A DNA stretch of 64,000 nt from Raillietiella orientalis. Its lineage: Eukaryota. Under the pieces are notes generated by a model. That model was not told the DNA's origin. It worked only from the letters and a program-made list of their open reading frames with translations, and made no database searches. Of this stretch, positions 26,059 to 60,441 are shown in pieces (the first letter of the stretch is position 1; each line of letters starts with the position of its first letter). The position numbers and the translations under genes were made by a program. The DNA lies in contig JAYWIR010000015.1 in NCBI GenBank assembly GCA_036172245.1, positions 496,001-560,000 on the forward strand, read 5' to 3'.

Positions 26059-29000
26059 TTCAACCGAAGGCCGTCACTACCACTTCTAAAAATATGCAAT
26101 TACTTGTCATTAATGTTCCTGTGAGGGAAAGAAACCAACGTAATCTCATGTATTTCGTCCGATGCAAAATTTGATTTTATACGAAATGCAACACGTTTCG
26201 CATGCTTTTTTTTTTTTTTTCCTTTTCTTTTCTTTTCTTTTTCTTTTTTTTTTTTTTCTTTTTACTCTTTTATAGAGAGAAGGGCAGCGTAGGACGAAAA
26301 GATTCCAAGAACTTTGCGTTGTAATGCAGTGGACCTCAAGAAGCACGCCCGCTCTTACAGCAGCGTTTATTAGTCACAGTTGTGCAATGGATTCTGTTGC
26401 CCGAAAACGAATGGTAAAATAACACGATCGTCTACGTTTTTTTTTTTTTTCCTTCTCCGCAATTTTCAAAAAAAAAAGAAAAGGAAAAAAAATACATTTT
26501 TGAAAAGAGTTCACCGCATCTGCTGGAAAATGTAAACACCATTCGCGCTAGCGTTTAAAGTTCCTGAGGTCGCATTCCACGATAAGTATCTGAATCATAT
26601 GTAAAACCCGAGGAGCAAAGCATTTGAGTCTCTTGTTTCTACGAGTTTACTTTTTTCGATAATAGTGATAATGATAATGATGTTAAGAGGCACACTTTAT
26701 GGTGCTTCACTTCCGCACTTTTAACGAGTTGTATACACTGCCTCGGAGTCATGAGGTGTTACCTATTTGCCTTATTTATTAAGGGTATCATAAGTGTGGC
26801 ATGGGTATGTTCCACAAATCCGATAAATGCAGCTATTTGCCCATAAATGCGGTTGTTTTCATCTTAAGAGAACGCACTGTGTGAATGGTAAAAAAAAAAA
26901 AAAAAAAAATCAAACCATCGTTGCTTGCAGTACACTGTTTAGGCGGATAAAACCGTAACACACAAGTTAAACAAAAAAAAACACACACACACACATTAAA
27001 AAAAACTACTGACATCGATAGTTTAGCTGGCGAAGCTGTTAGCATGCTACAAAGCCATAAAAATCTTCCAAAACATCACATACACACAAAATCTCCCGAA
27101 ATAACTTCGTGCAATAGAAGATTGAAAAGGAAGAACAAAAAGGATTCCACTGACTGGAGCTTCATTATTTTCACTGCTTCCAGATCTCGGAACACCAATT
27201 CTGGATGCATAGAGAATACAGTATTCCTGCAAGCAGGTCTCAAGTACTTAACATCCACTAACGTTACAAGCAACACGGGATGCAACGAAACAGTTCAATA
27301 AACACCGACACGAAACGGTACCATTATTTTTTGCCCGCGCCGAAGGAAAAAAGAGCAGCCGAATTTATGTAAAAGACACACTCCAACAGATTCTCCAGAC
27401 GATTTTGTACATGATAAGGTACTTTCGCTTTACTTTCACAAACTTTTCGAAGACTCTTCGAAGTACTCTGGGCAAATCCTATGCAAAGAGAATTTTCTTC
27501 CGTCTTTCCATGTAGACGGTTTTGACTCGGTCAACGAAAGTCTTTCCGAGGAGAGGGGGAAAAAAGAATAAAGATAATGTTGCAACTAAAACTGATCGTT
27601 CGACAGATTAAAGGCTCAATGAAGCACTGCCGTGTTTTTTGGAAATCAAACAGCACACTGGGCTAATAGCTTGCTAATGCCTTTTGTGCACTTCCTGTAT
27701 ACGGAAGACAAAGCCATATTAGATTCTACACATCACCAATGAAATGAAGCTGCTGGGAAGGTTCTATTTAAAAGTGCGCTTCCAAAGTAAGAGGAGTAGG
27801 CATTCTTTTTCTTTTCTTGGTTTAAACTGCTGGATTTTTCACATCCCACTACTCACCAATGGGCTATATTTAGAATGGCAGTTTCCATTGGCAAATTAGA
27901 GGAAACCCAACTTTTCTTCCAGGAGCAATCTTTGATCCACTGGTTCGTATGTAACTACATACTGACAAGTCTTTTTTTCCTTATTTATCACAGCCATGCT
28001 TTTATCACGTGCTTCCATTGTGAAAAAAGTGGCAGTGTACGTCCTCCTTAACTACACGCAATTTCACGGTTACATTCAAAAGGCATATTGGAAAATTTCT
28101 GCAAAAGTATTATTATTATTATTATTTTAATCTCTCCCCAAGAAGTATCTATTTTTTTGCATTCATCCGAGAAGCACCCCCTCCCTCCTCTCCAAAAAAT
28201 AACACGGCGGACACTGATGTGCGCTGCCCCCCATGCAATACAGACTCGGCTTTCCAAGTGCTTGCAATGTGTTCCTTTTTTGCTGCTCACTTGCATTTTG
28301 AAACCGAGGATCCGGACATTCCACAAACAAGAGAATCCGTCACTCACCACACGAACATGTCAGAAAATTCCAGGGGTCACCGCCAACTCTTGACCACTTG
28401 TGTGGGCTTGACCACTTCCCCCCCGAGTTCACATTTACGACGAGCGTCGGTCAGCAAAAGTTCCCATCAACTGACCGCCGTCTTTCGAAGCACCCAAAGC
28501 ACCTTCTGCACTGTGGCCTGCGAGGAACCACAAAAACGAACACATGTCAACAACACCGCAGTGTCCCACGACGGCGGCAGACGCGCTGCTGCGGCGACGC
28601 CGACTGGAAAGAACGATGCACGCTCTTCGCAGCGTGCCCTCAAGACTTCCCAAAAGGGTATTTAGGGGCCGGCACTGTGCAGCTGGGAGGGAACCCGCGG
28701 CAGATGATTTGCCGTTTCTGCCGAGAAGAGCGAGCGCGAGTGCACCGTGCGAGGTGCCACGGACGAAGAAGACATCTATCTCTCTCTCTACCTGCACACT
28801 CTACTTCTAACGCCAGTCTTGTGCGGTGCGCGTCGCGCGAACTTTCCGATTGGACGGAACCACCAATTTGCAGAAGAAAAAAAAAAAAAAAAAAAAAAAA
28901 AAGGGCCTGAACAAGCGAGGATTCTTGAAAACAGAAAGAAAAACACTGCCACATCAGGCACTCTACAGTGTCACCGTTGCACGTCGAAGCTTTCGAAAGA

Positions 29001-29727
29001 AACGTCTCCGTTCAAACCCAGAAAGCTGTCTGTCGAATAAAAATCCATATGCCATCAAATAGAATACGTATCGATAAATACACTGCTTGCATCGACTCAT
29101 TAAAGTATCAAAGAGCAATGTAAGAATTCTATTTGCAATCACCTTTATTCGTAGCTTACGGTAGAGTGAAAGAAGGAACAAAAAAAAAAAAAGCAACCAT
29201 ATTTATCATGCGTGCAAGTACTCATCAGTCTTTACCCATTTTCACCATCAAAAGAAGAAAACAAAACAACCTTAGTGTGCAACTACATAGCAGTTACCTT
29301 CTGAACGTTACTACACTAAAGAAGTAGAGCGATAGTTGATGAAGGATGGATCACAACTGATCCTGCGAAACATCACTTTTTACTCAAACTCTGCTTGCAG
29401 AATTTTGCAACTCTTTCATTCACGAGTACTTTGTTCCCGTACTCCAGGAAAGAAAAAAAAAAAGCCCAAAGTTTCTTAAGGGAAACATGCAGACCATTTC
29501 CTGTCCCTACTGCCCACACCCCCACTTACACACTTACTGGTTTATGCAATCATGGGGCGAGTTGTGGTACTTCTCAGCGTCACACAGATGCACGAAGGGC
29601 TACCATCTTAAACTGTCCAATTTATGAAGCGAAACTCTAACGAAACCTCAATGTCACCGTGATCTAAACGATGAAGAGAAATCAACGCATGAAAAAAAAA
29701 CTAGAATACACAAAAATACGTACACAC

Positions 29728-29728
<1 letters not shown>

Positions 29729-29757
<29 letters not shown>
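29729..29757. repeat. (AC)n microsatellite
   Basis: Uninterrupted AC repeat seen directly. Confidence 0.95.
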
Positions 29758-29762
<5 letters not shown>

Positions 29763-31596
29763 AAAAGGAAAAGGAAAAAAAGGGGGGGGGAGGAAGGGAA
29801 AAAAAGGGAAGGGAAGATATTCACGGTGGAAACCGGACAAGTTTCTAAAAGCATATCTATTTCTTTTCTTCTTCCTCTTTACGCATCTATGGTGAACGCT
29901 TTGGACGCCGTGGACGTTCAGACCCTCCAGGCAAAAGGATCCAACGTTGTGATTGCAACAATACAGATGATTTCGATTGTTGATACAAATGCTTCTCTCG
30001 AGTCAAGTTTTCCTTCCGAGAATGCCTGCTGGGCACCGCCGAGGGAAACATGAGTTGCGTCCACTTGAAATCTATCCGAGTCATTTCTTCTTCTTCTTCT
30101 TCTTTGTCTCATTTCGCATGTTCTGGAGCAGCAGAAGAGATCTGCTTGGAAAATTCAATGATCAGATAATGGGAAACTCATAAGTAAAGATCCGCCTACA
30201 CAACGGGAAACGAAACGTTCCTCTCTTCCTTCCCTCAACGACGGCTTCAAATTAAATGTTTGCCATTTCTTAATAATCCGCAGCTTCAGCTCGCGGAAGC
30301 GACCACAAACATCTGTCATTCAGCACCATACTGCTGGGTGTCGTGAGATTTCCAAGAGTGAGATGTTTTCTCCGAATAACTACGCGCCATACATCCTCGC
30401 AAGACGTAAACAAATAAGCGCCGCAACTTAGAAAAACGGTAAAATTCTTCAGCATCTTAACTGGAACTAGGATGGAGGAATCAGTAACGCTCATCGAAAT
30501 ACGAACGTCCTCGCATCATCATTGGGTAAAACCTCCTCCACTTCCTCCCCCTTTCCCCCCCCCCCTGTGTGTGTGTGTCTTTTTGGTTGGGGGGGGGGGG
30601 AGGGACGAAGATGTACATTTTTGGGGAGGAAAGCACAAATATCCCACGTAACGATTTTGTATACCAAGAGTAGATTCCCACCAGCCCTGGAAATAGAAAG
30701 ACCTGAAAGCCCGCACACGCGGCTGCTGGGTACTTCTTACGCCAGAAGCATATCGCCGAACACAAAGAAAGAAAGAAAGAAACAACGGCGACAAGAGCGA
30801 CAAAGTTCGGCCACGAAGATGCAAGAAGTGCGCTCTACTTGGGGAATCCAATGGTGATGGAAAGGCGTGAAGGTGCGCACCCTATCCCACTTTTCCACAT
30901 TTTCCTCCCTTTCGAAATTTATTTTGGTGCCTCCGTGGGACACACCTGCTTTGACATGGAGGACGAACGGATCGCTTGGATAGAGTTTCGTCCCCCCCCC
31001 CTCCCGCGCTCCGTTAGAAGATTGGTGGTGTCTTCGAACTGCGTCCATGACAAACACACACACACACACATGTATGCATGTATGTATGTATGTAGTTCTT
31101 TTTGTGCCTCATAAAAATTAATTGCGATAGCGTGGCTCTAACCCCATTTCGTTCTCGCTCAAGATCACGATAAGATTATGAACTTTTATCTAACTACACT
31201 TTACCGGAACGAAACTTATCAACAGAATTCTGGTGCAGCCTAACCGTAAACCGGAGGAAGCCAGCTATCAGCTTATCATAGGTACAATGTTTGGTGAAGT
31301 GTTCCAAGCCACGGCGAGACTCGAAAGCATAACACCCAATAAGCGAGGTTAAAAATACAGGTCTTCTTTCCGCTACACGCTCTCGAAGCTACGCCCGATC
31401 TTCTCATTCGCCGGAGGAAAAGCAATTCGTATTTCTATCGTACCAGCAATTTTAAATCTGTCTAAAATTCTTCCCGGGAAGAAACGAGGGTGGCAGGGGG
31501 GGGGGGAGAAGCCGAGAAGAAGAAGAAGAAGAACAAGAACAAGAACAAGAGGAAGAGGAGGAGGAGGAAGAAGAAGAAAAAGATAAAGGATCCTCC

Positions 31597-31618
31597 GTGT
31601 GTGTGTGTGTGTGTGTGT
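31597..31618. repeat. (GT)n microsatellite
   Basis: Uninterrupted GT repeat seen directly. Confidence 0.95.
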
Positions 31619-32149
31619 ACGGGACTCCGGATCGCCTGCCACGATTTCCGAGATCTTTCGCTTCTCGTCGCCGATGCTTGTCTTCCGCGGTGGGGAGGAG
31701 GGGGGAGGGAAAAGAAAAGAAAAGAAAAAAAAAAAAAGAAAGAAAGAAAAGGGGGAGGGAAAAAAAAAAAAAAATGGGAAGAAAGGACGCTTGAATCTAT
31801 CGACGCGCGCGAGATGCCCGGCTCTCGCTCGGCAAGCGAGCAAAGACACTACTACTGAAACGCGGAATTCTTCACCGGAGTCGGGGCGAAAACAGTTTCG
31901 CCATTTATCCTCACCGAATTCACTATGTACTCACTCGAGGAAACAGCTGTCACGAATTCTCCTCCTCTTCAACGGATTGATCCGAAAGCGATGCTGCGCC
32001 GTGGGCTTTTGTGCTTTTACGACGACGGTTGCTGCAAAACAAAACGGCGAATGTTAACCGACAGCCCCGGCGCGTTCGCTCCTCGCATCCGATCGACGTC
32101 GGCAATTAAAAAGTCATCCACAACAAAATAACAATTTACTTTTACCTAC

Positions 32150-32452
32150 CCGATAGCCGCGGAGCGCCGTTGCTCTGCTAACGACCGCAAATGTCACTGT
32201 CTAGTTCCAAGCTTGTGAAAACCGCACCGAAGCTTCGCTGCTTGCTCAATCGATGGAAGGCCAAGTTGCTGTACTTGTCAGGGCCCTTCCTCTCTGATGC
32301 CATCAGCCAACTCAGCAACACTCAGCCAACCAAACCAGGAGACAAGAACGGAGTTGCAGCGAGTCTCGCGACTGCCGATTCGTTTTTCCTGTGCGCTAGG
32401 TACATTCAGCTACTGCGCTTCACTTGTGGAGGAACTCAGCTGACAGCAACTG
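32150..32452 (-). promoter_or_regulatory. Candidate first (5' leader) exon / TSS region of the zinc-finger gene
   Basis: High-complexity island within simple-repeat DNA. Inr-like GCAGTT near 32452, donor CGG|GTAGGT at 32149, and a (GA)n tract ~160 bp upstream. It would splice to the strong acceptor TTTCTTTCCCTCACAG at 26119. Inference only. Confidence 0.35.
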
Positions 32453-32608
32453 CTTGCAATGCGGAGCGAAGCAAAGCGAGGCTGGGCTTATCGTTTGGCT
32501 GCTGCTGCTGCTTCGCTTCCTCCTCCCCGGTGGCTTGGCTCTCCCGACCCCGGCAACAATGCTGATGCTGACGATGGACCCCCCACCCCCACCCCTCCTT
32601 GCTCTCCG

Positions 32609-32629
32609 TCTCTCTCTCTCTCTCTCCCT

Positions 32630-32664
<35 letters not shown>
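32609..32664. repeat. (CT)n/(GA)n microsatellite
   Basis: Interrupted CT repeat seen directly. Confidence 0.95.
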
Positions 32665-32666
<2 letters not shown>

Positions 32667-35600
32667 GTGATGGGGGATGGGGGCTCTGCATGCTTTTGGG
32701 TTTCATGTGCGTATGAGTCTTTTTTAGAGGATTGGAAGGGGGGGGGGTTGTTTTTTTTCCTTTTTTTTTTTTTTTTTTTTTTGGGAGGAGGGGGCGAGGA
32801 GAAGAAGGAAAGGAAGAGGAGGAGATTGGTTTCTTCCTCCTCCTCCTCCTCCTCCTCCTTGTTCCCCTCCCTTCTTTGTCTCTGCTGGTCTTCGGGAGAA
32901 AGCACGCGGGTCTCTTGCGCTGCCGTTTGGTAGTGGTAGGGTAGCGTCGAGAGGGAGGAGGGGAGGGAAAGGAAAGGGAAGGCAACCGCTTGGGTTCTCT
33001 TGCGCTCTTCCCCTTGCGCGCTTCCGCGCCTCGAGAGAGAAAAAAAAAAAAAAAAAAAAAAAGACCGACGGGTTGGGGAGAAAAGAACGCAGGGGCACCT
33101 ACGCGGCTTGGTCCGCACGCAGCGAAGGATGCGCTCCTTCCAGTTCGGCAAAGGGCACAAACAATGCGCGGTTTTCCCGAGCGAAAGAAAGGCCTGTCTT
33201 TCGCGCAAGGACGCGACCTAGATCAAAACCACGATCTCTCCCCGCCAGCTTCCCAAGCGCTGGCCGTAGAGTAGAGCCATCTTTACCGGCGAACGCGAAA
33301 TACCGGGAAGCGGGGAAGGAACGCAGGGGGAGTGTGCAAGAAGGTGACGAGTCGGGAAAGCCTCCTACGTGGCAAAATGGCTGCTGCTGCTGCTGCCGCT
33401 GCCCTCCCCTTGGCCGTCGCCTCCACCGCCGAGACCGACGCTGACGTCGATGGTAACGATGGCGGTGGAAGCGACGACGATGAAGAGGCCGCTTCAAGGT
33501 TTTTTTTTTTTTTTTTCCTTTTCGTTTCCTTTTATTTGTTTCATCTTTTTTATTTTTATTTTATTTTATTCTGTTTTCGAGGGCTCTCTGCGCCCCCTTT
33601 TGTCCCTTCTTTTCTTCCTCTCTCTTTCGCTCTCCCCTTCTTTTGAGGGTCTGTAGACGCGTCCTCAAAAATTCCGCCCGACGCAGCAGCAGCAGCGCTC
33701 CCTGCCGGGCGTGGAACTCGCGTCGAGCGGAACACGAGCCGTGCCCAGCCCGTCGCCTCTACACAAAGAGGCAGGCGGGGGCGGTGTGTGGCAAACCTCC
33801 TGTGCGCCAGCTATCGCCCGAGCATCGCGTGGCGATAATGGCGGAGGAGAGGGGGGGAGGGGAGGAGGGGGTAGCGGGCGGGGCATGAAGAAAAAGGGGG
33901 GGGGGGGAAAGAGGAGGTTGAACGTCCTCTTGAGCGCGCGTCGCACCGGTGGACTTCTTTCCCCGCGCACAAGAAAGGGGACAAAGAAATCCCGTCTTCC
34001 TCTTGTTCCTTTTCTTCGCGGAGGAGGAGGAGGAAGGGTACGAGTTGCAGACAGCACATACCCCTCTCCTTCCCCCCCGCGCATATCGAGGTCGCGGTTG
34101 TAGTCGCGCAGCTGGGGGTGATGGTCGTGATGGCGGTGGCTCCTCGGCTTGGACCACCGACCAACCGTCAGCTCCAAGCCGCGCAGGCATTCTGGGTGTG
34201 TGTGTGTGGGGGGGGGATTCGGGTCGTCGTCATCGTGTTTGCCGCAGCCCCCGGCGCCCCGAGACGACGACCACGCGGGGGACTCGTGGGCTCGTCCAGC
34301 AGTAGCAGCCCCAGGCTGTGCGCGCGCACAGCGTTCGCGAGGTACCGGCGACACCGGTAGATGGCGTTGCGACGAGCCGTCGTCGCAAGAACGGCAGCGG
34401 CGTGGCTGCGGGTCGTCTTTGTGCGCGAGTGACGCTCGCCCCGCGCCCTTCCCGGGTCGCGGATGGCGGCGCGGAACGCTCCGGTCTTCTCCTCCCGCGA
34501 GCGGGCGAGGAAGCGGCCACTGCGAGAGGAGGAGCAGGGAGGGCGAGAGAGCGAGGAGGGAGTGGAAGGGACGGCGGCGACCAGACCTCTGCGCGGCTTC
34601 TCGACGCGGACGGCGGCGGCTAATGCCGACGCGCGCTCTCATGGTCGGTCGCCGTGGAAACGGCTGCGCGCAGGGCGACACGACAGGTCCGCCGGGGTGG
34701 AGCAGCGCGGGAGACGGCTGTCAGGAGACCGTCCGGGAGGGTGGAAGCAGGCTGCTGGCGGTGAGGGCTCTTTCTCCGCCCCATTTCCTTTCCAGAGGGA
34801 CGGAAGGGACGCCCTGAGGGCGTGAGGAAGAGCGTCCTTTCTCCTCTCCCTCCTTCCCTTGTTCTTCGGACGTAAGAAGACACGCGTCCGGCGTTCCCTG
34901 CAACGAGGCTCGCTCGCTCTGTTCCCCTTCCCCCATCTGGACACGGAGAAATATGCACCGGTTCAGTGGGGAGGGGATGCCTTGACATGGGCTCTTCGGA
35001 GGATTTGGTCTACCGCCGTCGGGAGGACATGGGGGTGGAGGGGAAGGGGTAGAGAGGTCGCCACGCCGACAGAGGGGAGGATATACTCTCAGATTCCTCC
35101 TTTTCACCCCCTCCCCGGTAAGGTGCGGATCTCGGTTGCCTTGGAGACAGAGATCGGAAGTCTGGCTCGCCCTCTGGAGGAGAGGAGTAGGTGCAACAGC
35201 GATGCTGTTGAGAAGGGCAGGGAGGGAACGAGAATCACCCTGCCCATGAGCAGGGGAGTGCGCTCACCTATCCTCTTTGCCCTTCGATGAGCCACCCCCT
35301 ACCTTCACCCCTCCTACCCCTTCACTCCGGACTGAAGGAATCGGACGCGTCCTTCGCTCCAAGGGGCGTTTCCAGCCGGTGTGGGGGAGGATGAGGGCGG
35401 TGGAGCTTCGCGTCACCCTCCTGCCGGAGCGTAGTTCCTCTCTCTACTGCCGGAAGGGCTTCCCAGAAAAGGCCCTACTTGCTGGTCTCCTCCAGCCGTC
35501 GATCCAGCGGGAATGTGCAGGTCCAATGTATGTGGGGGGGGGGTCAGGAGGAGGGGTTGGGAATTGTGCTCCGTCCCTCCGGGAAGAAGGAAAGAAGGAA

Positions 35601-40224: not shown

Positions 40225-40251
40225 TGCTGCTGCTGCTGCTGCTGCTGCTGC
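40225..40251. repeat. (TGC)9 triplet repeat
   Basis: Seen directly. Confidence 0.95.
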
Positions 40252-41148: not shown

Positions 41149-41180
<32 letters not shown>

Positions 41181-47900: not shown

Positions 47901-50288
47901 GCCGAGAACGCTGTGGCTGTCTCGAAGACTTTTCTTCCCCCCCCCCCCCACTCCTCTCCCCGGACCTCTCGAGTGCTTCCCGCTTTGGGGAGACCGCACG
48001 CGCACTTCATTTCCTCCTCCCCCCTCTTACCCCCCCTCCCCCACGAATCGCAGTTTCGAAACTCTCTGCCTTTCGCCCATTCGCATTCTGCGCGCGCTAG
48101 CGCACACCGCCGCTGCCTCCCCTCCCTGCCTCTCATCACTCCCTGGGAATTCTAGCCATGTTGAGATTACGCATCTTCCGCTCCATCGCGGATGCAGCGG
48201 AGTCCGAATTCTTCCCCTCAGTTCCCCCCCTCCCTTCTCTTTCCAGAGTCTTTCCGGACCTCGCCTCTCGCTCGTTCGGCGAGTGCGTCACCTCACGCAT
48301 GAACGTCCCACGGATGTCATCTGACCCTGACGCCGCGCACCTCGACGGTTGGTGCCGCACGTGACCAGAAAGTAACCTGATGGCGGCCGTTCCTCGGACT
48401 CCCTTTATCCTGGCGTTCTCCGTCGGCAGAAGGCACTTTGTGCTTCCGTGCTGCGCCCGATTCCGGTTTTTTGTTGTTTTGTTACTACTGCTGCTGCTGC
48501 GACTCCTCTTATCCTCGGCCCCACCCTCGCCCCAAGGCTCTTGGCCTGCGTTCCTCTCCTTCCCCGAAACGAAGCCCCTCTCTTGTCGTTCCGTCCTTCA
48601 CGTAGCAGCGGCAGCAGCGTCGATGCTATCAAGTGACAGACTGAATGGCAACGGACCCCTTTCCTCCTCCTCCTCTCTTCCTTCTTCCTTCTTTTTGTCC
48701 TCTTCTTCTTTTCCTCCCTTCCCCCTCCTCCTCCTTCCTCCCTTTTCACTCCTTCACTTCATTGCCTTTTTCTTTCTTTCTTCTTTTCGTATCACCTTCT
48801 TGGCTTCTCTGACATCTTCTCTCTCATTGTGAGCGATACCTCCATCCACCCCTTCAGAGGTCACTGCCGAAGAGCCCGTGCTGCTGCAGCTCCCTTCGCC
48901 TTGCTCCTTTCTCGCCTTCGCTCGCTCCCGCCGCTGTTCCATCCGGGCGGCGTCGCTCCAAGGGCGAAAAGCCGGCCGTAGGGAGGGGCGGACGGATGGG
49001 AGGGGAAGGGGGAGGCGGGGAGAAGGCAAAAGGGGGGGCAGGGTGAGAGGAAAGCAGGATGAAGGGAGCGCGGCAGGGGGAAGAAGAAGCGGAGGCAAGC
49101 TGACGACGACATGAGAGCCAGCGACGGGGAGGGCCGCGTCGCCTGTCGGATTACCGGAGCGCCGCTGCGGCCTGCCCCGAGATCGTGACGGCGGCCCCGA
49201 ACTTCCCGCGGTTGCGCGCGGGTGATTTGTGGTCCGCAGCCGCTCGCGCCCGAGGACTGCAGAAACTCAGAAGGAATTCGCGAGTCTCTTCCACAGGGCG
49301 CGCGCGCGCGCCGAGCGCTCGCAGCGGGGAACTGACGAGGCTGCTGCGCAGCCTGAACCAAGAGAGGATCTCTCCCTTTGCTCCTCGAACTCGAGCCCGG
49401 AAGCATCTACATCCGTTCCTCACACCTTCCCTCCACCTCCTCTTCCTCCTCCTCCCGTTCCCTCTCTTCCTGGTACCGTTCTTCCCTCCCCCTCGTTGCT
49501 ACGCCGGCTTGCTCGAGACGATCCCTCCGCGATCATGCCGGCCAGAGATTTTTCGGGGTTCTCTGCTGACCCCACCTGCCTTCCGGATAGGTCATGCCGC
49601 TTCCCTCGGTGGCGTCTCCCTCGCAGTGCTCCCTCAAGTGCCTTTTCCCCCTTCCTCCCGCGCACCTTACCCGTTCCCAGTCCCAACCCTCTCTCGTCGG
49701 AAAACTTTCGAGTGACCATCAGCCACTGCTCTGCTCCCGAAGCCTTCCTGGCAGCGAGGGCAACCCACCTCCGCCTTCCCCCTTGCGGAGCGAGACCTCT
49801 GAGAATGGTGATCTCCCGTCCTTCCCCCGGCACGCCGATTGCCGGCAGCCGCCCGATCCCCTCCTTGCTGCAGGGAACTTCCGGGAGGCGCATCCGCCCC
49901 CACCGCTTCCTCGGAACTGTTGGTCTTTGCGAGCCTCGCCCGGGACTGCAAACACCACCTCTTCGGCGAAGAGGAGGAGCGGTGTTGACTCTCCGGGGCC
50001 TCCGCTGTGGCGCTCCCGCCCCCTTCCTCGAGCGGAAGGACATTCACGCTCGCGGCTGGGAGGACGTCCCTCCCCCCTTCCGGACCACCACCGCCACCGC
50101 CCTTTCCTCCGGAGCACGCGCCGTCTCTGCCGGTGGCTCCTCCCCCTCTGATGCCCCCCCCCCTCAAAACCTCGCGCTTTACTCCTCGAGCGAGGACTCG
50201 ACGATTTCGCAACCTCTGCGGCAGCTCTTCTCCTCTCTCGGGAGCGCCTGCCATCTTCGACGTCACCGGCACGGGCCATCCGAAGAGG

Positions 50289-50303
50289 GCGCGCGCGCGC
50301 GCG

Positions 50304-50334
<31 letters not shown>

Positions 50335-50335
50335 A
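50289..50335. repeat. (GC)n tract fused to a (GA)n tract
   Basis: GCGCGCGCGCGCGC-GT-GAGAGAGAGAGAGAGAG... seen directly. Confidence 0.9.
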
Positions 50336-53300
50336 AGAGTGCGTGATGCATCCCAACGAGTTGTCCACCTCTCCCTCTGCCGCCGCCGGTGGACCGACGA
50401 TCCTTGCTCGACCCGTTCCGAACTCCCCCCTCCTTCCGCCTTCAGCGCGCGCGACCACGCTCGCGGCCGACCCCAAGAACCTGCTTCCTCCTTCGGCCGC
50501 GCCCCCTGCTGGCCATCTGCACAACTGCCGCACCAGAGGGGAATCCAGAGCCGCGTGCGCGTTCCTCCCCGCCAGCGCGCGCGTGCTCTCCTTCCCTCTC
50601 TCTCGCGGAGCCCTGCGGCGGTTTCGTCGCCAGCTGTTCCAAAAGCTTCGGACGGATGGAAAGGTTCTCCTGGGTTGCATTCTGATGACATTTCGAGCAC
50701 GCATGCCGAGAGGCCGCTCCGCTCTCTTCCCTCTCCCTCCCTCCCTCCTCCTCCTCCTCCCACCGACGCGAAGCGGGAGCCAAGAAGAGGACGTGCCCTC
50801 GAACCCGACGAGGAATCTCAGCGGCCTGCCGCGGAAGAAGGGGGCGCCATCGCCGCGTTCAGGGGGCTGACGGACGCGGCTGTTCCCGGAATTGTTCCCT
50901 CCCCCTTTTTCTCTCCTCCCGACACCCCGAGACTGCGGACGTTGGCACGAGAGAGAGGAACCTCTTCCGCGCTGCCGCTGCTTCTGCCGCCAAGAGCTGG
51001 TACGCTGCAGCCTACGCGCTGACAGGGACGAAGGGGGGGTCAACGAACGTGACCACTATCACGAAAGCGCGCGCCGGTGGTGATCGTATTTTATTTGAAG
51101 AGGAGAGACTTCCTGTGCGCGTCGGTGGAGGAGTTCGGGGGACGAACGCAGAGGAAGTCTTTCACTGACGAGTACGCCGCTTGCGCCACGGCTGGGGGCA
51201 CGACGCCATCTCGAGAATGCTGTCGAGCGCGATTCCTCCTCGTCCATCTCCTCCCCCAAACCTTTTCGCGTACGATGAAAAGATGATGTCTTCTTTCTCT
51301 CTTTCCCCATCTGCCTGAGACGGTGCAGAGACGTGTTCTGAGGAAACATGAGAACGGTCTTGTCGAATCGCATCGTTGTTGTTGCTGTTGCTGCTGCTGC
51401 TGCCGCCGCGCGTGAGGATGCGGCGTCGTGTTTTCCTTCGGCTACCTCGGAGCTCGTCGTCGGTGGTCGTGTCGTTGTCGTCCTGGCCACCCTTCCGCGG
51501 TGCCGGCAGGGATGGGAAAGGATGCGCGGACTTCCCATGAGGCGGGCGGACGAGAGGGAACACGACGCGCCGCGGAACGAAGGTGCACCCCGCGACTTTT
51601 CCCGCTCCTTCCCTCCCCCCCCATGCTGCCGCCGCCGTGTTAGCGCTTCTGCGTCGCCGTGGTCCAGCTGCAGCCCCACTCTCACCTCGCGGGTTTTGCC
51701 GGGTCTCCGCGAGACGCCAGAGGCGCCCGTGATCCTGTGACTTGGGCAAAGTCCAAGCTGGACAGAGAGAAGCTGCTGCTCGGCTTCCTTTCTCTCCGAA
51801 CACGCAGATGCTCTCGTTTTGCCCAGTCCCGGAAGCAGCACGCGTTCCTGAAACTTTAGACGGACCCTTCGTTTTCTATCAGCCTCGCAACGCTCTGCAG
51901 CATTCGTGCATTCCATTCTGTTGCCATTGAAGACACGAAAGCTGAAACGGGGAAGGGACAAAGGAACTCCGTGCGGCGAACCCGAAGATCACAATGACTG
52001 TTCACACCTCGGGCTTTCGTCTAGAGTCTTCCAGAAGAAGAAAAAAAAAAAAAAAGAAGGAAGATCAAGAAGGAAGGCAATTGTTTTTCAAAAACGAGAG
52101 AAAGAAAAAAAAGTTAAAAGAATGGACCATCGGCATTCAGTAGAAGAAGACTGATAGTCCGAAGGAAAACGGTAATCACGTTGAGATTTTGGGTTCAGGA
52201 GGTCCAAAGTGATGTGCATGAGGAACGCAGAGTAAACCTCGGCTTTTGAGGATGCTGAGTGTGTTCTCAGAGCCCAGGAGGATAATAGCATCTCTTCTCT
52301 TGGTGAAAAGCGATTAACCGGGAATGTCGCTGAAAGCGATTTCGGTTAATGATGGAGGGAACTGACATACTCTACGAGCACAAGCTGATGCAGAAACACC
52401 TCCTTCAAGAAAACGAGCTGTTAACCGCGGTCGAATTCAGCTGCTGAGGATCCACGGCAAGCGAAGGTGGGCGCTGTTAAATAAGTCACATTGGTGGTGG
52501 TCAAACAGGCACATTAAAAAAAAAAAAAAAAAACACTATTTCGCTTTAGTAGTGCTTAGTAAAGAAAGAAAAAAAGTGCACGATCGTTCCAACGAGCATC
52601 CAAAGCATCGAATCTGTTGGAAGATCATCCTACAACCGAGCCCTTAAAAAAGGCATCCCAGTCCCACCATCCAGGTCACGGACCGAGTCGGGCCACCTAT
52701 CTCACGTCCATCCGATCTTCCTCGAACATTCGTGCTTCCACCGTAAAGCAGCGTCGCTGCGGATCGATGAAGAATCGTCGATTCGGATCGTCGCTCGAAA
52801 TAGCGGGGACTTTTTCCCTCCACCCAGAGAAAGCAGCGCGTTCTTCACCCTTTTCAGGATGGCAGCTCGCTGAAGCTCCATCAACAGGTTATTTGCAAAA
52901 TCGAGTCGGAAATGGATAGGGCAATCATTTCAGACACCAGTCCCGAGAACAAAGTACAGGACCGAATTCTGTGGCCTGCATGAGCGATTAGCAAATCCAA
53001 CTAGGGTGCATTTAAATGCTGCGCCTGGAGATGATGGAATCCGTATCCGATGGAAAACTTGGGTGTGAGGTAAGGTTCTTAATTGTCCCAATCAGAATCG
53101 GAAAGAAATTTGCCTTTTGCCCGAGTAAAGAGTCAGAACCGTGACGGAGGAATTCTTCGTCACGGCTCTCTCCCCTAAAGGGACACTCGCCGAGCCCTTA
53201 CGGAACCGGGAGGATGCAAAAAAGAAAAAAAAAAAGAAAAAGGCAGCTCGCTGCTGCGGTTCTCCCGTAATCTTCCTGACGCTCGAACGAAGGATGCACC

Positions 53301-56300
53301 CGATTGATCTTTGAGAGGGAAATGAGAGTTCAGAGTTTCCCTGGAGGTGACGGAAAAACCTACCAAGTAGTTCTGAGACCGCAGAGAGCGTTCTGCGGAG
53401 AAGGGAGATTTCTAATATTCGAACCATCCTTCATGCAACTGATGCTCATCCTCAAGGCTCAAGGGACTCTGAATGGACGAGGGGCACACCGAGCCACTCT
53501 TTTCCTAATCTTCAGAGCTCCTGCCGTCACTTTATTTTTGTCGAAGGTAAACCAATAAAAATGAATTGCACCCGTGGTCTCCCCCCAACATCCCCAATCC
53601 AGAATTTTGACTTTGCCTTCGACCGTATGCCGCGAACGAGGGAATGAAACCGGAAGGAGACCAGATCTGAGAGTTTTTGAGCAGGAAAGAGCAAACCAGA
53701 TGGATGGAGATGGAGTATTTCTTTCCTAATAGCCGGAGGCGGTCAGTCAGTGAAAACCGCACAGCTCCCCGATTCTATGGAGACACACAAAGAGTCCATC
53801 CAAGAAGAAATCCAGAGTCAGTTCCCTGCTTATCGGACTTTGAGTCCGCACCTCCGTAAAGAGCTGCAAGCTTGGAACCGCCCTTGTTCTCTTCACGGTG
53901 CCGGGTTTAATCGAGATTATGATGCAGCCAGCTTCGCGCTGACAAGTTCGCTTCCGCTCCCGAAATTCCGCAGCGTCCACACATCACGACGTCCGCGTTC
54001 CATTTTTGATGCAGAGGACCTCGGATCATCAGATCTAATGGAATCATTCTGTCCGAGTCCACACACGGTCCACATACAGACGCAGGAGTTTCCGCTGAGC
54101 ATCGACCGTATTTGAGCTGAATAGCCTCGACCTCGTTAGCAGGCAACCCAGAACGTGACCTCGCCGGCTGAATACGTGCTACAGAAAAGAGGTGCCACCA
54201 ATCAGGCGGCAGTGAAATCACTGAGGAACTCTTGGTTCTCTCGAAATCATCTTGATGAAAACTGCATGGATTGAGCAAACCGCCGTTTTTGAAAATAAGA
54301 AATTTGGAGAGTGCAGCCAGCTGGTGAAAGGACTCCCATACCAGCTTTGGGCAACCTATTCTTGGACTTCGACTTTTTTTTCCTTCTTCGATGACGACAT
54401 AAGCCACGTTCTGCCCACTTGGAACCACTCGCTCGTCGAGCAAGCTAAACGAAGTGCAATGAACCGAAATGTATTTGGATAGTTCAGTTTCCAGCGGCTT
54501 GAGAGATTCCTTACGATCTGATCCCCCTCAGTGTCAACCAGATCTTTTTTATTGGAGGTCGAGACCTGTAGGTGGTTGTTTATGGGTGGCGAATTAAGGA
54601 GCTCGGAGACTCGGCTAGCGCGTGATGTTGTATCATGGTGACGAGGCCTACGACAGAATGATGCACAAGTTGAGACACAAGCTCCGGAAGATGGCTTAGG
54701 TTAGACAGGGTTTCGGAATGCTGGTTTTCTTGCTTTTCCTTTCTCAGCAGAGTCAGCAGAAGCATTCGATTCTTCGGAACAGGAACGCAGAGGTAACTCA
54801 ACCATGAAGGAGTTCGGAGAGCGGCATACGAGGAGTGATCACCCTCCAGCTGTCGTTTTGCATTAAAGTCATATTCCTGGGAGGAATCACGTTACAGAAG
54901 ATAGCAGAATTTTCCTAGAAAAGGTATCAATTCTCATTGGTCATCATAGATGACGTCCTCCTGAACCTCGAATGTTAAACAGCTGAAATCCTGGAGCATA
55001 ATTTTCCTTGGATGACTTGGCACTTTGAATGCTACTCGTTCGAACTGAGGTGGGATAGGACGCGTAATTGTCATTTAATCCCGAATACATTTCAATAAGT
55101 GCTGCTCATGATGCCTATCCCTCAACGTATTTATACATGGATGACTCGTTCAGGTTCGATGATTCAAATATATATATATATTTTTTCCCGACTCCATCGT
55201 GCTTCTTATTCCCAGCACCTGACAACCGTTTCAATCGCTCTCGTCTCTTGAAAAACTCCTTCCAACTTGTGTTGGAAGAAACGCTGCGACTCGCTGCCGG
55301 CGGACACTGAGGAAAAGCGTACAAGAAATTGCTGTACAGCTGATTGAATCCTCCACACGGATTCTGTTCTCCATGCTGCACTTTGCACGCCAGATGGAAG
55401 GTGCAAGATTCCGTTTCCAGCAAAACATGACGTTCGTGTTTTTCTGTCTGGACTCTTCCTCTCTTTGGCATCCTCCCTTCTTCTTCTGTGCAAGTTTCTG
55501 TCCCACTCGTACGATTACCAGAGTGGATTTGTTGTGAGATGCAATCCCGACGCTTTTATAGAGTTGCGCTTGAGGCTTCCTCTTTTCACTTGCCACCACC
55601 AGTTCACGCAGCTCGACTGATTGGTGCATTTTTCCTACGACGGAATTCTTCCAGTCTTTTCCCATTGAGTACTCTTCGACATCGGTTGCACAGGTAACCG
55701 ACACAGTGTACGCACTGATTCTTCGCAAAAAGGATGTCTTTTACATCGAAGAAGGTTCACAAATGCAAGGATGTCCTCAATAACAGGCAATCCGTACGAC
55801 AGGTATAATTCTAAGGACTCTGGTTCCCATTCTTCTGCCTTTATAGCTGGCAGTTGCTGCAGCTACTGGAGAGGCATCATCACTCTAGAGACTACGTGTC
55901 TCTTTTGAAGAAACCACGTGAAACACGCTCTAAAGAACTCCCGATGCGAATAGGAGATTGCTTTTTAACACATAAGGGAAAAAACATACACAAAAAACAC
56001 GGTTCGCTGCTACTAATTCTTACCTTTTAATAGTACATATATGGAGCAAAGTGCCGAAAAGACCTCCCACCCCTCGTAAGTTTTTGATGCATTATTTCCG
56101 AAGCAGTAAGGAAAGAAAAATGATCTCCTTGTATACCCTTCTAATAGGGTGTTTGAGATTTCTGCTTTAGCAACTTTTTGAAACATTCTTTCCGTTGAGT
56201 GTGAGATACGAAAAAGAAATGTTTCTTCGTGGGGTTGGACCCACGAAGGAAGAAGAATTAGCCCAATATCAATTGCACGAGTGGCTGATAAGCAAATGCA

Positions 56301-59300
56301 CAAGAAACATGCGGAAAATGAAATCTCCCAAAATTACATTATATTACAGCGAGGGATTCCAATTTCCTTCCTTTCTTTTTTTTTAAAAAAAAAAAAAGAA
56401 GAGAAGAGAAAGAAAAAACGATGTGAGACTTCAAAACGAAAATTTTTCCACATTTTTAAACTCACTGCACATGGAATGGAGACACATCGCAAAGAGCATC
56501 ATCTCTTTGCCCCATAAAGCAGAATGAACAGATCGTTCTCTGTGAAGAGTTTTGAAAACTCAGTCGGCCAGATTGCAAATACAGTCCCATTTTTTTTTTC
56601 TTTAAAGAAGGCGAAACGAAAGGGTGGTTCCTCGACTCTCTCTTCGTCAGCGGAAGTTTCATTTTTTCTGAAGCACCCGGGAAGCGGCGCGCTGCGGGTC
56701 CAGAAGAAATCGAAAGAAACGCAGAACGCTTGCAATCTCGGTAGCAGCAGCAGAAGAAACGCAGGCAAAACGCCGTCCACGGTGGTTCTTCCTGACGGAA
56801 CCCTGTTCTCGAGCAGAGAAAGGCAGCGTCTCCGTCGCTGGGCTACCGGGAAGCTGCGTGCCCAGCAGCAGCAGCAGCATCACACCACTCGTGTTGGCAG
56901 TCGGACTCGACGCCCGATTTGTTGTTTGATGGTTTGCGTTCCACTCTGAAATGGGCTGCTGCGTGACAAAAACTTGGCGCGATCAAGGAGACGTGGATCC
57001 ATCACATGATCCCAACCCGTGCGTGCATTACCCGGAGAACAGCATGTTGTGCTTTTCGGAAGCTGGCACCCAGATAGGAACGACAGAACCAATTGCAGAT
57101 TGCTGGATGAACTGCAAAGTTGAGTGACGGCAGCAGCAAAGAATCTCGACTTTCACTGCTTGCAAGTACGGCAGCCAAGGAAAAAAAAAAAATTACCTCC
57201 AAGTGACATCTCGATAGAAATATGTACACGAGTTTTGGGGCGAAAAAATGAAATGAAGCGAGTTCGGTGGATGTACTTAGTTGCAAAACCGCGATGAGAC
57301 AAAGACCGAAAACAGTGGTTTGCGAGCGTCCCCAGTGCTCGCAGATCCTTTTCTGCAACCTCAACTCAATTTGGCACTTTTCTGCTTCCATTTTTCACAT
57401 CGATTTATAATCTTTTTCCCCTTTTCGAAGCGATGATCTCTCAGGGTAATTTAAAGAGTATTTCTGCTGAGTTCATGCAGCTCCTGCGTCAAAAAATCAT
57501 GTAGTTTCTAGAGGAAGGAGGAAAATCCCCATTTTTCTTCAACACGGAAAAAGTTGAAACATCAGATCATGATCATTGAAAATCATGAGATCACGGTGCC
57601 TTCGAGAAAAACAAAACGTCGAGTGTGACGTTAGAAAGTGTGTAGAGCGATGGCTGAAGCATTCATCGCTGACCGATAAAGGGCACCCTTTGAGGTTCTC
57701 CACTGCTGGGCAAGGAACAAACATGCAATGGAATTCACGAACACGGCAAGGATCCTGAACAAAACGACAAAAACAAAAAATAGTCGCATCATCCAAGGAA
57801 AGAGGCAAATTATCGTCCTAATTGGTCTGAAGAGTGAAAGAGTTTCACTTGCCATGTGCTCTTGAGATCCGATGAACGCTGGCGTGATTAAAGCTCAGCT
57901 AATTTATTATAGAGCAGATTCTACTGATTCCTCCAGGTTCCAGAGAACTGACCCCGATGGAAGAAACGATGCATTTAGTGATTCTTGCGCAAATTCCGTT
58001 TTTTTGAGCTCGACCGGATGTCGATTTCAAGTCCAGACTGGTGTGTGCACTTGGTATCTTTTCAAAAATAAGCTCAATTTCCATTTTATGCCCGGTTCGT
58101 CAAAGCGAGCCCCCCCTCCCGCGTGTGTGCGTTCCACATGTGCTCATGCGAGGGTAGTGTCACGGGTGCCAGGAGACACCAAATTTCCCGAGGTCTCATT
58201 GATAGTTCCGTCCCATACTCTTTTACTATTCGATCTCCAAAGACGGACAGTGTGTTCTGGATGCTTTCCAGCATCAGTTTTCTTACTCATCGTTTCGAAA
58301 AGCGGGTGATTTGACATTCTGAAACAGCCATCCAGAAATCTTCCAACGCTAAATCGCTGGAACCTATTGGTCACTCTTTCGGTCTCCACAACCGGCATTG
58401 TTATATTCAATCTCTGGTAGTCCTCCAGGTAAGCAACACAACAACACAGAAAGACTACTGTATTGCCCACTACAAAGTGTTCCTCTAAGCTACTTGATCA
58501 GGGCTTTGAATCTAACATAATAACAAACTGACCGCTCGGATGGCTCCAGAGACTAGTTTGCCGTGACACCAAAAGCTGGTATAATAATATAGGCCGGCAC
58601 AGTTCACTTCGCTCACCGGCCGAAGACGATACTGATCTAAGAATACTTTACTCTTCCCGTGCACCATCCTAATATACTGGGGGGAAAAGAAAGAAAAAAA
58701 AGGGGGGAAAAAAAATACAAAAAAAAACGTCCCATTCCAATCGCTCACAATGATTGAGGCAGCAGTCTAAACCAACAGTTCGATCTAGAAAGTAGACCCC
58801 ATGATTCCTAAGGAGAAGGTACTGTTCAAAATGGTGCCGACATCAACTTCAGAAGCCCAAACGGAAACATACTACTTACTTTCCGTTGCTGAACTGGTTC
58901 GATTGAGCAAAGCTATCACTGGGGAAACAAATTATTTCGGCGAAATGATTTGTTTGTACGTTTTGTTCTTTGGATCCCAAACCAAAAAGACAATAACCCA
59001 AACAATTCGATGATCACTGAGGTGTGCCTTTTTTTCCAGCCACCATCCCCGATTCAAATGCACTTTTTTTCGTGAATTTCGGTGGAAACGGAATAATTGC
59101 AAAGGTCGCCTACAATTGTACATCATGACCGTACATAGTGGAAGCGTACATCGTTGCCGTAGCTCCCCAAAGGTTCACTTGCATCGTAGCTCCCGATACG
59201 CTCCGCTAACTTTTCTCAGGAAGTACAAGAAAACCGAACGCAGTTCCTCAAAGATGTCACCCTGACCTCGGCGAATTAGAAAATCAAAAGTGCATGTACA

Positions 59301-60441
59301 CTAGAAAACAAACAGAACACACGCGTCTGTGACAAAATGGTATGACGAATGGCTTTCACTCTATTACCGCAATAGCAATTTTTTTTTCTTTTTTGGCATT
59401 GGTTTTTTGCAGAGACTATAGCAATCATAAACATTGAAAATAATGACCTGGTATACCGAATAGGGAAGCCTTTCTTAATATGGACTATGCCTAAAATCCG
59501 GAAGAAAAAACCTGCAAGCCTTTGCAAACATTTCCGTTAAGTCTGATTTTTCCAATTATTTGAGATATTCCATCATCGAGAAAGAATGTCTATGAAAGGC
59601 CATAGAATAATGGGAACACAGAGGCAAGCTTCGACTACACTGGCAAAAAGGAAAAATGTAATCCAATGTAATACGCTCCAAACCGCACCGTGTGAAAACG
59701 GCAGAGGACATCGTCTACATAAGGGCCATCTACGCAGAGAACGAGGAAGTACCCCACCGGAATGTTAGCTTCACAGCCTCAGCATTGCGAAGCGTACTCC
59801 GGTGACCGGCTTGCATATCGAAGGCACACTTTTCAAGAGAAATCCTACATTTGGGGCAAAGTACATTGAGAAAACTGACTACTTAGGCATTTAATCGATT
59901 GTGCCATACAACTTGCAAGACTCATATCTTCAGCAAACTTATTTATCATGTCTATTGGTATTTGGAATGGGCTTTGGAAAGAAATGCTTAACTTTTCCAT
60001 GAAGCTTTTTACGATAATAATCAAATACATAATCAATAATTTGCACAACACGCTCCACCCATAATTTCAACCCAATGCATTCAGTCTTTGATGCATTCTT
60101 TAGAATACTTGCGCAGCTGAGTGTTATTCCACGAGAAACATGAGCACAGAAAAACGAATCACGGAAAAACCTCAGGACGATTTCTCAAAACAATCAGACA
60201 AAATAATTCAGTCCCGATACGTTACAATGCTTCCGGCAAGGCCGCTTGATGCACTTAAATATGCTTAATTCATTAAATAAATGCTCACAGTACAGATGTA
60301 ATTTCGCAAGGGGATCCAATGATCACTGTTACTACTAATTAAGAAGTATACACTCATACTAAGGAATTCGATGGCTAAAACATGACTTTCCATATGAACC
60401 CTATTTTGGGGGGAAATGACAGCTGTCAATACCAACTCTAT

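What the first reader, a model, noticed from the sequence alone, without database searches (positions are those of the whole stretch)
26100..60400. ~34-kb gene-free interval with a symmetric GC/CpG dome in a compact AT-rich genome
Seen: GC rises gradually from ~26 kb to a plateau at ~33-52 kb (sample 45/60 G+C, 12 CpG per 60 nt) and falls gradually to ~60 kb. Neighbouring genes have ~45-nt introns and as little as 64 bp between stops. Graded edges argue against an inserted foreign block or a chimeric join. Inference: an unmethylated regulatory domain upstream of a developmental transcription factor, driven to extreme GC by lack of CpG decay plus locally strong GC-biased gene conversion or mutation bias. 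It would resemble a giant CpG island or methylation valley in an invertebrate.
Basis: partly seen in the sequence, partly recalled or inferred. Interest (0 to 1): 0.75.

Follow-up and report, generated by a model that had tools for sequence, protein, structure and literature searches.

The report
Gene-free GC-rich island between arthropod genes
A 34-kb stretch with no detectable genes, lying between two ordinary genes of an AT-rich arthropod genome, climbs to about 65% G+C and shows no sign of past DNA methylation; it most likely records long-term recombination-driven base-composition drift, not a hidden gene, a repeat or foreign DNA.

Summary
Between the start codon of a zinc-finger gene (26058) and the stop codon of prolidase (60442), GC rises from ~0.33 to a 0.645 core and CpG o/e is 0.93-0.96, against 0.29-0.40 in flanking gene bodies. 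I found no protein domain, coding periodicity, known RNA family, internal repeat or bacterial similarity. The shape is not symmetric. The left side is a ramp with a step at ~33.67 kb. The right side is a 20-point step at ~51.85 kb followed by a long 0.45 shoulder.

CpG retention explains at most ~7-8 of the ~32 GC points, and other non-coding DNA in the window stays at GC 0.33, so a separate AT-to-GC driver is needed. Best reading (0.5): native, germline-unmethylated intergenic DNA driven GC-rich by GC-biased gene conversion, as in honeybee GC-rich domains and dog GC-peaks, but with an ~18-kb core. No reads, whole genome or relatives were available, so this mechanism is inferred and untested.

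The 'regulatory valley upstream of a developmental transcription factor' reading lacks support. The neighbouring gene is uncharacterised, has a CpG-depleted body, and its promoter-proximal 2 kb is AT-rich.

The parts
26059..60441 (.). Whole intergenic interval (~34.4 kb): CpG-neutral, with no detectable gene
   Evidence: Edges come from gene models. CpG odds are 0.93-0.96. Only the prolidase exon, outside the interval, reached a Pfam cut-off among 388 frames. There is no coding periodicity, no Rfam family at gathering score and no tRNA.
26100..33673 (.). Left ramp: GC climbs 0.35 to 0.55
   Evidence: Spearman 0.85, +3.2 GC points per kb. GC inside purine/pyrimidine tracts rises 0.13, 0.36, 0.48, 0.53 and 0.63 across 24-39 kb. 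Tracts of >=15 nt cover 11%.
33674..51844 (.). GC-rich core (~18.2 kb, GC ~0.65)
   Evidence: Change-points at 33674 and 51845. GC is 0.645 and CpG 96 per kb. The sequence is unique, with 1 repeat pair and 11 weak pairs. It is enriched only in microsatellite-type k-mers. Purine/pyrimidine tracts cover 13% against 0.6% in shuffles. There are 26 G4 motifs against 8.4 in shuffles, and 21 (CG)n runs.
51845..60441 (.). Right shoulder: GC ~0.45 declining to 0.40, with a different texture
   Evidence: A 20-point step at 51845, then -1.4 points per kb. Tract density falls from 18 to 7 to 4 per 3 kb and tract GC from 0.58 to 0.28. CpG odds are 0.94.
19045..26058 (-). Left bounding gene: conserved multi-C2H2 zinc-finger protein, 5' end facing the interval
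   Evidence: Pfam zinc-finger hits. Arthropod homologues of 1,700-2,900 aa align from residue ~27-55 to the end. CpG-depleted body.
60442..61551 (-). Right bounding gene: Xaa-Pro dipeptidase (prolidase), 3' exons, stop codon facing the interval
   Evidence: Peptidase_M24 at 92 and 58.7 bits. Homologues are named Xaa-Pro dipeptidase. Stop codon and 48/51-nt introns were read.
40786..40974 (+). Copy 1 of the only complex internal duplicate
   Evidence: 77% identity to 41785-41985.
41785..41985 (+). Copy 2 of the duplicate
10100..16000 (.). Control: AT-rich non-coding stretch outside the interval
   Evidence: No Pfam hit. GC 0.327, CpG o/e 0.71, TpG/CpA 1.23. Purine/pyrimidine tract coverage is 1.6% for 10.1-19 kb.

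Best explanation
The interval is native, single-copy, non-coding DNA between two ordinary genes of an arthropod whose gene bodies are methylated in the germline. The whole 34 kb has escaped methylation, so its CpG has not decayed. On top of that, a regional bias favouring AT-to-GC changes has pushed an ~18-kb core to ~65% GC and 7-8-kb skirts to ~45%. The most likely source of the bias is GC-biased gene conversion. In that model, meiotic recombination is kept out of methylated gene bodies and concentrated in this unusually long unmethylated gap, and repair of heteroduplex mismatches favours G/C over evolutionary time. Shown here: composition, CpG neutrality, absence of detectable genes, repeats or foreign DNA, and the graded left side. 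Inferred only: the lack of methylation, the recombination and the conversion bias.
For: The size and shape of the GC elevation are. There is no CpG-decay signature across exactly the gene-to-gene interval, while gene bodies show strong decay. CpG retention explains only 6.7-8.1 of ~32 GC points. High GC is not caused by low-complexity tracts: GC is 0.653 outside them and 0.592 inside. The skirts stay elevated at 0.45 against 0.33 for 7-8 kb on each side. Tract GC rises stepwise on the left, which fits an in-place regional process. Not coding: 1 of 388 frames reached a Pfam cut-off and it lies outside the interval; periodicity is at noise level; the longest ORFs are within or near shuffle expectation; the 678-aa ORF has 0 homologues among 1.84 billion representatives. 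Not a repeat or mobile element. No match to plasmids or phages. Precedent from papers: in honeybee, gBGC strength rises with GC (B over 15 above GC 0.55) and crossing-over is suppressed in germline-methylated genes (PMC4406589, passages). In dog, non-methylation attracts recombination and gBGC creates GC-peaks and new CpG islands mostly away from genes (PMC4350167, abstract and passages). In termites, recombination is lower in methylated gene bodies than in flanks (PMC12047536, passages).
Against: There is no direct evidence of recombination, conversion bias or methylation state. No sequencing run was listed, no whole genome is held and no relative's sequence was found. Third-position GC of the flanking exons is only 0.29-0.37, so the process does not visibly reach coding sequence, unlike the gerbil regions (PMC7403616 abstract). 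CpG o/e is ~0.93, not above 1 as in honeybee non-coding DNA, where it is ~1.7 (PMC4406589 passages). The 20-point step at ~51.85 kb, with its change of texture, is not predicted by a smooth recombination gradient. Other non-coding stretches (1-5.5 kb, 10.1-16 kb) are only mildly CpG-depleted yet are not GC-rich, so 'unmethylated therefore GC-rich' is not general in this window. Kb-scale purine/pyrimidine strand blocks are not a gBGC prediction. Termite hotspots do not differ in GC from background (PMC12047536 passages).
Confidence: 0.5

Rival explanations
1. Regional mutation bias unrelated to meiotic recombination. Examples are error-prone or GC-biased repair at structure-prone DNA, or a replication-origin or replication-timing effect that raises GC locally.
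For: The core is rich in structure-prone sequence. Purine/pyrimidine tracts cover 13% against 0.6% in shuffles. There are 26 G4 motifs against 8.4, and 21 (CG)n runs against 0-1 elsewhere. Paired inverted low-complexity tracts are present. Kb-scale strand skews suggest strand-asymmetric processes. Flanking exon GC3 is unaffected.
Against: I read no precedent for a mutation bias of this size confined to ~18 kb; the papers I read attribute such peaks to gBGC. GC is higher outside the tracts than inside, so the tracts are not the source of the GC. Structure-prone sequence could be a consequence of high GC and not its cause.
Confidence: 0.15
2. A functional unmethylated chromatin domain: a giant CpG-island-like or methylation-valley-like regulatory region, kept CpG- and GC-rich because unmethylated CpG density is used to recruit chromatin regulators.
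For: The CpG-neutral domain is bounded exactly by the two genes. CpG density is 96 per kb in the core. GA/GGA-rich tracts are enriched. The interval is about five times longer than the next largest non-coding gap in the window.
Against: No developmental gene or any detectable gene lies inside. The adjacent zinc-finger gene has a CpG-depleted body and an AT-rich promoter-proximal 2 kb, and its homologues are uncharacterised. No complex motif recurs; the enriched k-mers are microsatellite-type only. Vertebrate methylation valleys cover developmental genes themselves (PMC5806489, search-listing abstract only).
Confidence: 0.12
3. An unannotated transcription unit shapes the region: a long non-coding RNA, a small-RNA cluster, or a lineage-specific gene with tiny exons or low-complexity product.
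For: Strand-skewed blocks at 39-42 and 47-51 kb. The 678-aa ORF exceeded the shuffles' 95th percentile, with 2.5% of shuffles reaching it. Neither exons under 55 aa nor RNAs absent from Rfam were testable.
Against: Periodicity is at noise level. The 678-aa ORF is low-complexity and has 0 homologues among 1.84 billion representatives. There is no Rfam match at gathering score, and the 21 permissive matches are sub-threshold hits on low-complexity hairpins. The skew pairs G with A (a purine skew), which follows the tract texture.
Confidence: 0.08
4. Foreign or artefactual block: a horizontally acquired or contaminant GC-rich segment, or an assembly join.
For: A sharp 20-point GC step with a texture change at ~51.85 kb and a smaller step at ~33.67 kb. 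Read support could not be checked.
Against: No protein domain of any bacterial, viral or mobile-element kind in 388 frames. No match to plasmids or phages. The texture is eukaryote-type microsatellite DNA. The graded left ramp and the elevated skirts on both sides are not something an insertion would create in host DNA. There are no N runs, and the sequence across the step reads as continuous unique DNA.
Confidence: 0.05

Closest known systems
Honeybee GC-rich, high-recombination non-coding domains (PMC4406589, passages read)
   Same: An AT-rich insect genome (34% GC) with strong regional GC variation. Methylation is restricted to gene bodies. Recombination is higher in non-coding DNA and suppressed in germline-methylated genes. 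gBGC is strongest where GC exceeds 0.55.
   Different: Honeybee non-coding CpG o/e is ~1.7, against 0.93 here. The host here is not a bee: bee prolidases are only 57-61% identical. Recombination and allele-frequency evidence exist for the bee and not for this window.
Dog GC-peaks and CpG islands at stable, PRDM9-independent recombination hotspots (PMC4350167, abstract and passages read)
   Same: The proposed logic is identical: unmethylated DNA attracts recombination, gBGC raises GC and creates CpG-island-like sequence, mostly away from genes.
   Different: Scale. Dog GC-peaks average 965 bp and CpG islands 481 bp (Table 1 of that paper), against an ~18-kb core here. The dog is a globally methylated vertebrate genome; this is a mosaically methylated arthropod genome.
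Runaway GC regions of gerbil genomes (PMC7403616, abstract read)
   Same: Extreme local GC attributed to very high recombination and gBGC, described as 'runaway' GC evolution.
   Different: The gerbil regions are gene-containing, megabase-scale clusters with raised synonymous and non-synonymous substitution. Here the region has no detectable gene and flanking exon GC3 is not raised.
Vertebrate DNA methylation valleys or canyons (PMC5806489, search-listing abstract only)
   Same: A multi-kb domain lacking the signature of methylation, CpG-rich, and much larger than a promoter island.
   Different: Valleys cover developmental genes and are studied with Polycomb marks. Here no gene lies inside and the neighbours are housekeeping-type with CpG-depleted bodies. 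Chromatin state is unknown.

Membership tests
gBGC-driven GC-rich domain (honeybee / dog / gerbil type) | Regional GC elevation not explained by repeats, coding constraint or foreign DNA | tested here: met
   and Pfam
gBGC-driven GC-rich domain (honeybee / dog / gerbil type) | Excess of AT-to-GC substitutions, or AT-to-GC alleles at raised frequency | not testable with these tools
   No reads, genome or relative available
gBGC-driven GC-rich domain (honeybee / dog / gerbil type) | Coincides with elevated recombination | not testable with these tools
   No population or pedigree data
gBGC-driven GC-rich domain (honeybee / dog / gerbil type) | Acts regardless of function, raising synonymous-site GC of embedded or adjacent genes | tested here: inconclusive
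   No gene lies inside. Adjacent exon GC3 is 0.29-0.37, at most slightly higher in the blocks nearest the interval.
CpG island / DNA methylation valley | High CpG o/e and high GC over the domain, in contrast to CpG-depleted surroundings | tested here: met
   CpG odds 0.93-0.96 against 0.29-0.40 in gene bodies and 0.70-0.76 in other non-coding DNA. The thresholds for 'island' are recalled, not taken from a call.
CpG island / DNA methylation valley | Covers the promoter and body of a developmental regulator | tested here: not met
   No domain-bearing frame inside. The zinc-finger gene body is CpG-depleted and its first 2 kb upstream is AT-rich.
CpG island / DNA methylation valley | Experimentally unmethylated, with Polycomb or trithorax chromatin marks | not testable with these tools
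   No methylome or chromatin data
Foreign insertion or assembly chimera | Coding remnants of, or nucleotide similarity to, bacterial, viral or mobile DNA | tested here: not met
   (only plasmid and phage collections were available for DNA comparison)
Foreign insertion or assembly chimera | Abrupt compositional boundaries on both sides with unaffected host flanks | tested here: not met
   Steps exist at 33674 and 51845, but both flanks stay elevated for 7-8 kb and the left is a graded ramp.
Satellite, high-copy repeat or transposon island | Internal repetition or transposon protein domains | tested here: not met
   1 repeat pair. 11 weak pairs at high sensitivity and no GC periodicity. No transposase, reverse-transcriptase or integrase hit. 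Copy number elsewhere in the genome could not be tested.

The most novel reading that the evidence does not exclude
The interval is a functional giant non-methylated island in an arthropod. On this reading it is an ~18-34-kb CpG-dense domain maintained because unmethylated CpG density itself nucleates a chromatin state (Polycomb/trithorax-like, or a recombination-initiation zone). That would mean vertebrate-style CpG-island logic operates in a mosaically methylated invertebrate genome.
Probability: 0.1. Interest if true: 0.75.

Novelty: new member of a known kind. Interest (0 to 1): 0.4.

Why it matters
The link from unmethylated DNA to recombination to gBGC to GC and CpG gain has been worked out in dogs and birds. 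It is partly supported in bees, and one of its steps, lower recombination in methylated gene bodies, is reported in termites. One review-style analysis states that it is unclear whether animals other than gerbils and birds have local GC peaks driven by gBGC (PMC10978632, passages). If domes like this recur at long unmethylated gaps across this genome, they would extend that link to another arthropod lineage. They would do so at an unusual amplitude (33% to 65% GC) and scale (~18 kb). Base composition alone could then serve as a map of the long-term recombination landscape. If the dome is unique, it is a striking but isolated compositional oddity.

Tried and rejected
Whole genome: none is held, so recurrence of domes and copy number could not be tested.

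Sequencing runs: none was listed for 36001-46000 (after a length slip).

Earlier scan notes: nothing by place, words or sequence.

Relatives: the three homologue searches found no close relative. The prolidase exon is 57-66% identical to its hits, and the zinc-finger ORF 30-48% and 31-38%. The metagenome scan gave one unrelated weak hit, L001, at 37% over 50 residues. The substitution-direction test was therefore impossible.

My impression of recurring GCCAT-type motifs (recalled as YY1/Pho-like) was not borne out by the unbiased k-mer test.

The permissive Rfam scan gave 21 sub-threshold miRNA-type matches on both strands at three low-complexity hairpins. I rejected these as spurious. The planned fold of those hairpins failed on a length limit and was not repeated.

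The codon-position score did not separate known exons (0.00-0.11) from interval ORFs (maximum 0.055), so it is inconclusive.

The consensus fold of the two duplicate copies is uninformative with two GC-rich sequences.

Telomere-type repeats: none.

Supplements of the cited papers were not opened.
Full report
**Observation**

Sliding-window composition confirms a large GC elevation. GC is 0.30-0.39 across 8-27 kb, rises through 27-33 kb, holds at 0.58-0.70 across 33-52 kb, sits at 0.40-0.50 across 52-61 kb, and returns to 0.30 at 62-64 kb.

CpG o/e is 0.96, 0.93 and 0.94 in the ramp, plateau and shoulder. It is 0.29 in the DNA polymerase gamma body and 0.40 across the DnaJ and zinc-finger bodies.

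Arthropod homologues align to the zinc-finger gene from residue ~27-55 onward, which places its start codon at ~26058 on the minus strand. Prolidase ends at a TAA at 60442-60444 on the minus strand.

The compact-genome claims also hold. Two prolidase introns are 48 and 51 nt with GT...AG ends. The convergent stops at 18978-18980 and 19045-19047 are 64 bp apart.

**Shape**

The dome is not symmetric.

- Left: GC climbs at +3.2 points per kb (Spearman 0.85 over 26-35 kb), with a step at ~33674 (0.53 to 0.65).
- Right: there is a 20-point step at ~51845 (0.65 to 0.45), then a slow decline of -1.4 points per kb into the prolidase gene (Spearman -0.68 over 52-63 kb).

The feature is therefore an ~18.2-kb core with elevated skirts of 7-8 kb. 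Plateau means are 38.7 G+C and 5.6 CpG per 60 nt, and only 8.5% and 3.2% of lines reach 45 and 12.

**Is it gene-free?**

- Pfam: I scanned every stop-to-stop frame of at least 55 aa between 26.0 and 61.2 kb, 388 frames. One reached a curated cut-off, the prolidase exon at 60670-61191, which lies outside the interval. Eight others had sub-threshold matches (E 0.0015-0.01), as expected by chance.
- Periodicity: three-base periodicity is 4-9 in the zinc-finger exons. It averages 1.2-1.3 in the interval. One of 115 windows exceeds 4, and it overlaps the prolidase exons.
- ORF length: the longest ORFs are near what composition-matched shuffles give. The fraction of shuffles reaching the observed longest ORF is 0.06, 0.025 and 0.095 for ramp, plateau and shoulder. 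Their translations are low-complexity strings.
- Homology: the one frame beyond the 95th percentile (678 aa, 39859-41892) has 0 homologues among 1.84 billion representative proteins.
- RNA: no Rfam family reaches its gathering score and no tRNA is found. The 21 permissive Rfam matches are sub-threshold hits on both strands of low-complexity hairpins.

Exons under 55 aa, lineage-specific RNAs and transcription as such remain untested.

**What the sequence is**

It is unique. Self-comparison finds one ~200-bp duplicate at 77% identity (40786-40974 and 41785-41985). A more sensitive pass finds only 11 weak pairs, and GC shows no periodicity.

Over-represented k-mers are all microsatellite-type: GGA, CAG, CCG, CG, GA, GGGA and homopolymers. 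Purine/pyrimidine tracts of at least 15 nt cover 13% of the plateau and 11% of the ramp, against 0.4-0.6% in shuffles. They cover 3.6% of the shoulder and 1.6% of AT-rich flank DNA. The core has 26 G-quadruplex motifs against 8.4 in shuffles, and 21 CG runs against 0-1 elsewhere.

High GC is not produced by these tracts. GC is 0.653 outside them and 0.592 inside.

Nothing suggests foreign DNA. There are no bacterial, viral or mobile-element domains and no match to plasmid or phage records. The sequence across the right step reads as continuous unique DNA.

**Two nested features**

The dinucleotide table separates two things.

1. Gene bodies show CpG odds of 0.29-0.40 with TpG/CpA at 1.32-1.36, the signature of methyl-CpG decay. 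Other non-coding stretches (1-5.5 kb and 10.1-16 kb, no Pfam hit) show mild decay (0.70-0.76 and 1.20-1.23). The whole gene-to-gene interval shows none: CpG odds are 0.93-0.96, and TpG/CpA is 1.01-1.06 in ramp and shoulder. So a 34-kb CpG-neutral domain is bounded exactly by the two genes.
2. The GC-enriched core is narrower than that domain.

CpG retention cannot explain the GC. Decaying the plateau's CpG to o/e 0.35 or 0.2 lowers GC only from 0.645 to 0.578 or 0.564, while the AT-rich non-coding control sits at 0.327. A separate AT-to-GC driver is required.

**Evidence on the driver**

On the left, GC inside the purine/pyrimidine tracts rises stepwise toward the core: 0.13, 0.36, 0.48, 0.53 and 0.63 across 24-39 kb. 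The same class of element becomes GC-richer in place, which fits a regional process acting on resident DNA.

On the right, tract density and tract GC drop abruptly at 51-52 kb (18 to 7 to 4 tracts per 3 kb; 0.58 to 0.28). I cannot explain this drop. Third-position GC of flanking exons is 0.29-0.37, so the process barely reaches coding sequence.

**Host**

Homologues of the flanking genes are arthropod. The prolidase exon is 57-66% identical to crustacean, springtail and insect proteins. The zinc-finger ORF is 30-48% identical to insect and crustacean proteins. No close relative is in the collection.

Strong gene-body CpG depletion argues against groups reported to have lost or greatly reduced methylation, namely springtails, flies and twisted-wing parasites (PMC5915941, abstract). 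This is an inference.

**Mechanism and comparison**

The best-supported explanation is GC-biased gene conversion concentrated in a long unmethylated gap. The precedents I read are these:

- Honeybee: gBGC strength rises with GC content, crossover rates correlate with GC and CpG content, and germline-methylated genes have suppressed crossing-over (PMC4406589, passages).
- Dog: non-methylation attracts recombination, and gBGC generates GC-peaks and new CpG islands mostly away from genes (PMC4350167, abstract and passages).
- Termites: recombination is lower in methylated gene bodies than in flanks, although hotspots there do not differ in GC from background (PMC12047536, passages).
- Gerbils: runaway GC regions affect genes at megabase scale (PMC7403616, abstract).
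- Insects generally: a survey of 150 insect genomes notes that it is unclear whether animals other than gerbils and birds have local gBGC-driven GC peaks (PMC10978632, outline and passages).

This interval differs from the dog peaks in scale: ~18 kb against a mean of 965 bp. It differs from honeybee in having CpG o/e near 1 and not ~1.7. It differs from gerbil regions in holding no detectable gene.

**Verdict**

The feature is real, native and non-coding as far as these tools can show. It is best filed as a probable new example of a known kind of compositional island, with the mechanism inferred and untested.

The neighbouring gene is uncharacterised and housekeeping-like in its methylation signature. 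Its proximal upstream DNA is AT-rich. No developmental gene or recurring motif lies in the interval.

Decisive tests need the whole genome, population data, a relative's sequence, a methylome and transcript data. None of these was available.

Noticed in passing
window 51750-52050: Abrupt boundary: GC falls ~20 points within a few hundred bases, and purine/pyrimidine tract density and tract GC drop with it. An A-rich run follows at ~52035. No repeat, tRNA or mobile-element end was seen there. The cause is unknown.
   Followed up: partly
window 40786-40974 and 41785-41985: The only complex duplicated element in the interval: ~200 bp, 77% identity, 1 kb apart, direct orientation. It matches no Rfam family.
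   Followed up: partly
window 32747-33069; 26213-26492; 39944-40251; 37126-37363; 41591-41733: Paired inverted low-complexity tracts 90-270 nt apart: poly-T with poly-A, (GCA)n with (TGC)n, and GGA-rich with TCC-rich. They account for spurious sub-threshold miRNA matches on both strands.
   Followed up: partly
window 16001-18000: The most extreme CpG depletion in the window (o/e 0.09-0.14 per kb), upstream of and within the 5' part of a DnaJ/Hsp40 gene. Its zinc-finger and C-terminal domain exons lie at 17951-18584 (+).
   Followed up: no
window 1-5500: A second stretch with no detectable coding sequence and moderately raised GC (0.41) and CpG o/e (0.76), downstream of the DNA polymerase gamma gene. 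It could be the edge of another GC-elevated gap lying beyond the window start.
   Followed up: no
window 28251-28750: An isolated GC spike (0.50-0.61) within the otherwise ~0.40 lower ramp, about 2.2-2.7 kb upstream of the zinc-finger start codon. It overlaps two chance-length ORFs without Pfam hits.
   Followed up: no
window 18978-19047: Convergent gene ends only 64 bp apart (DnaJ-side TAG and zinc-finger TAA). This illustrates how compact the genic parts are compared with the 34-kb gap.
   Followed up: yes
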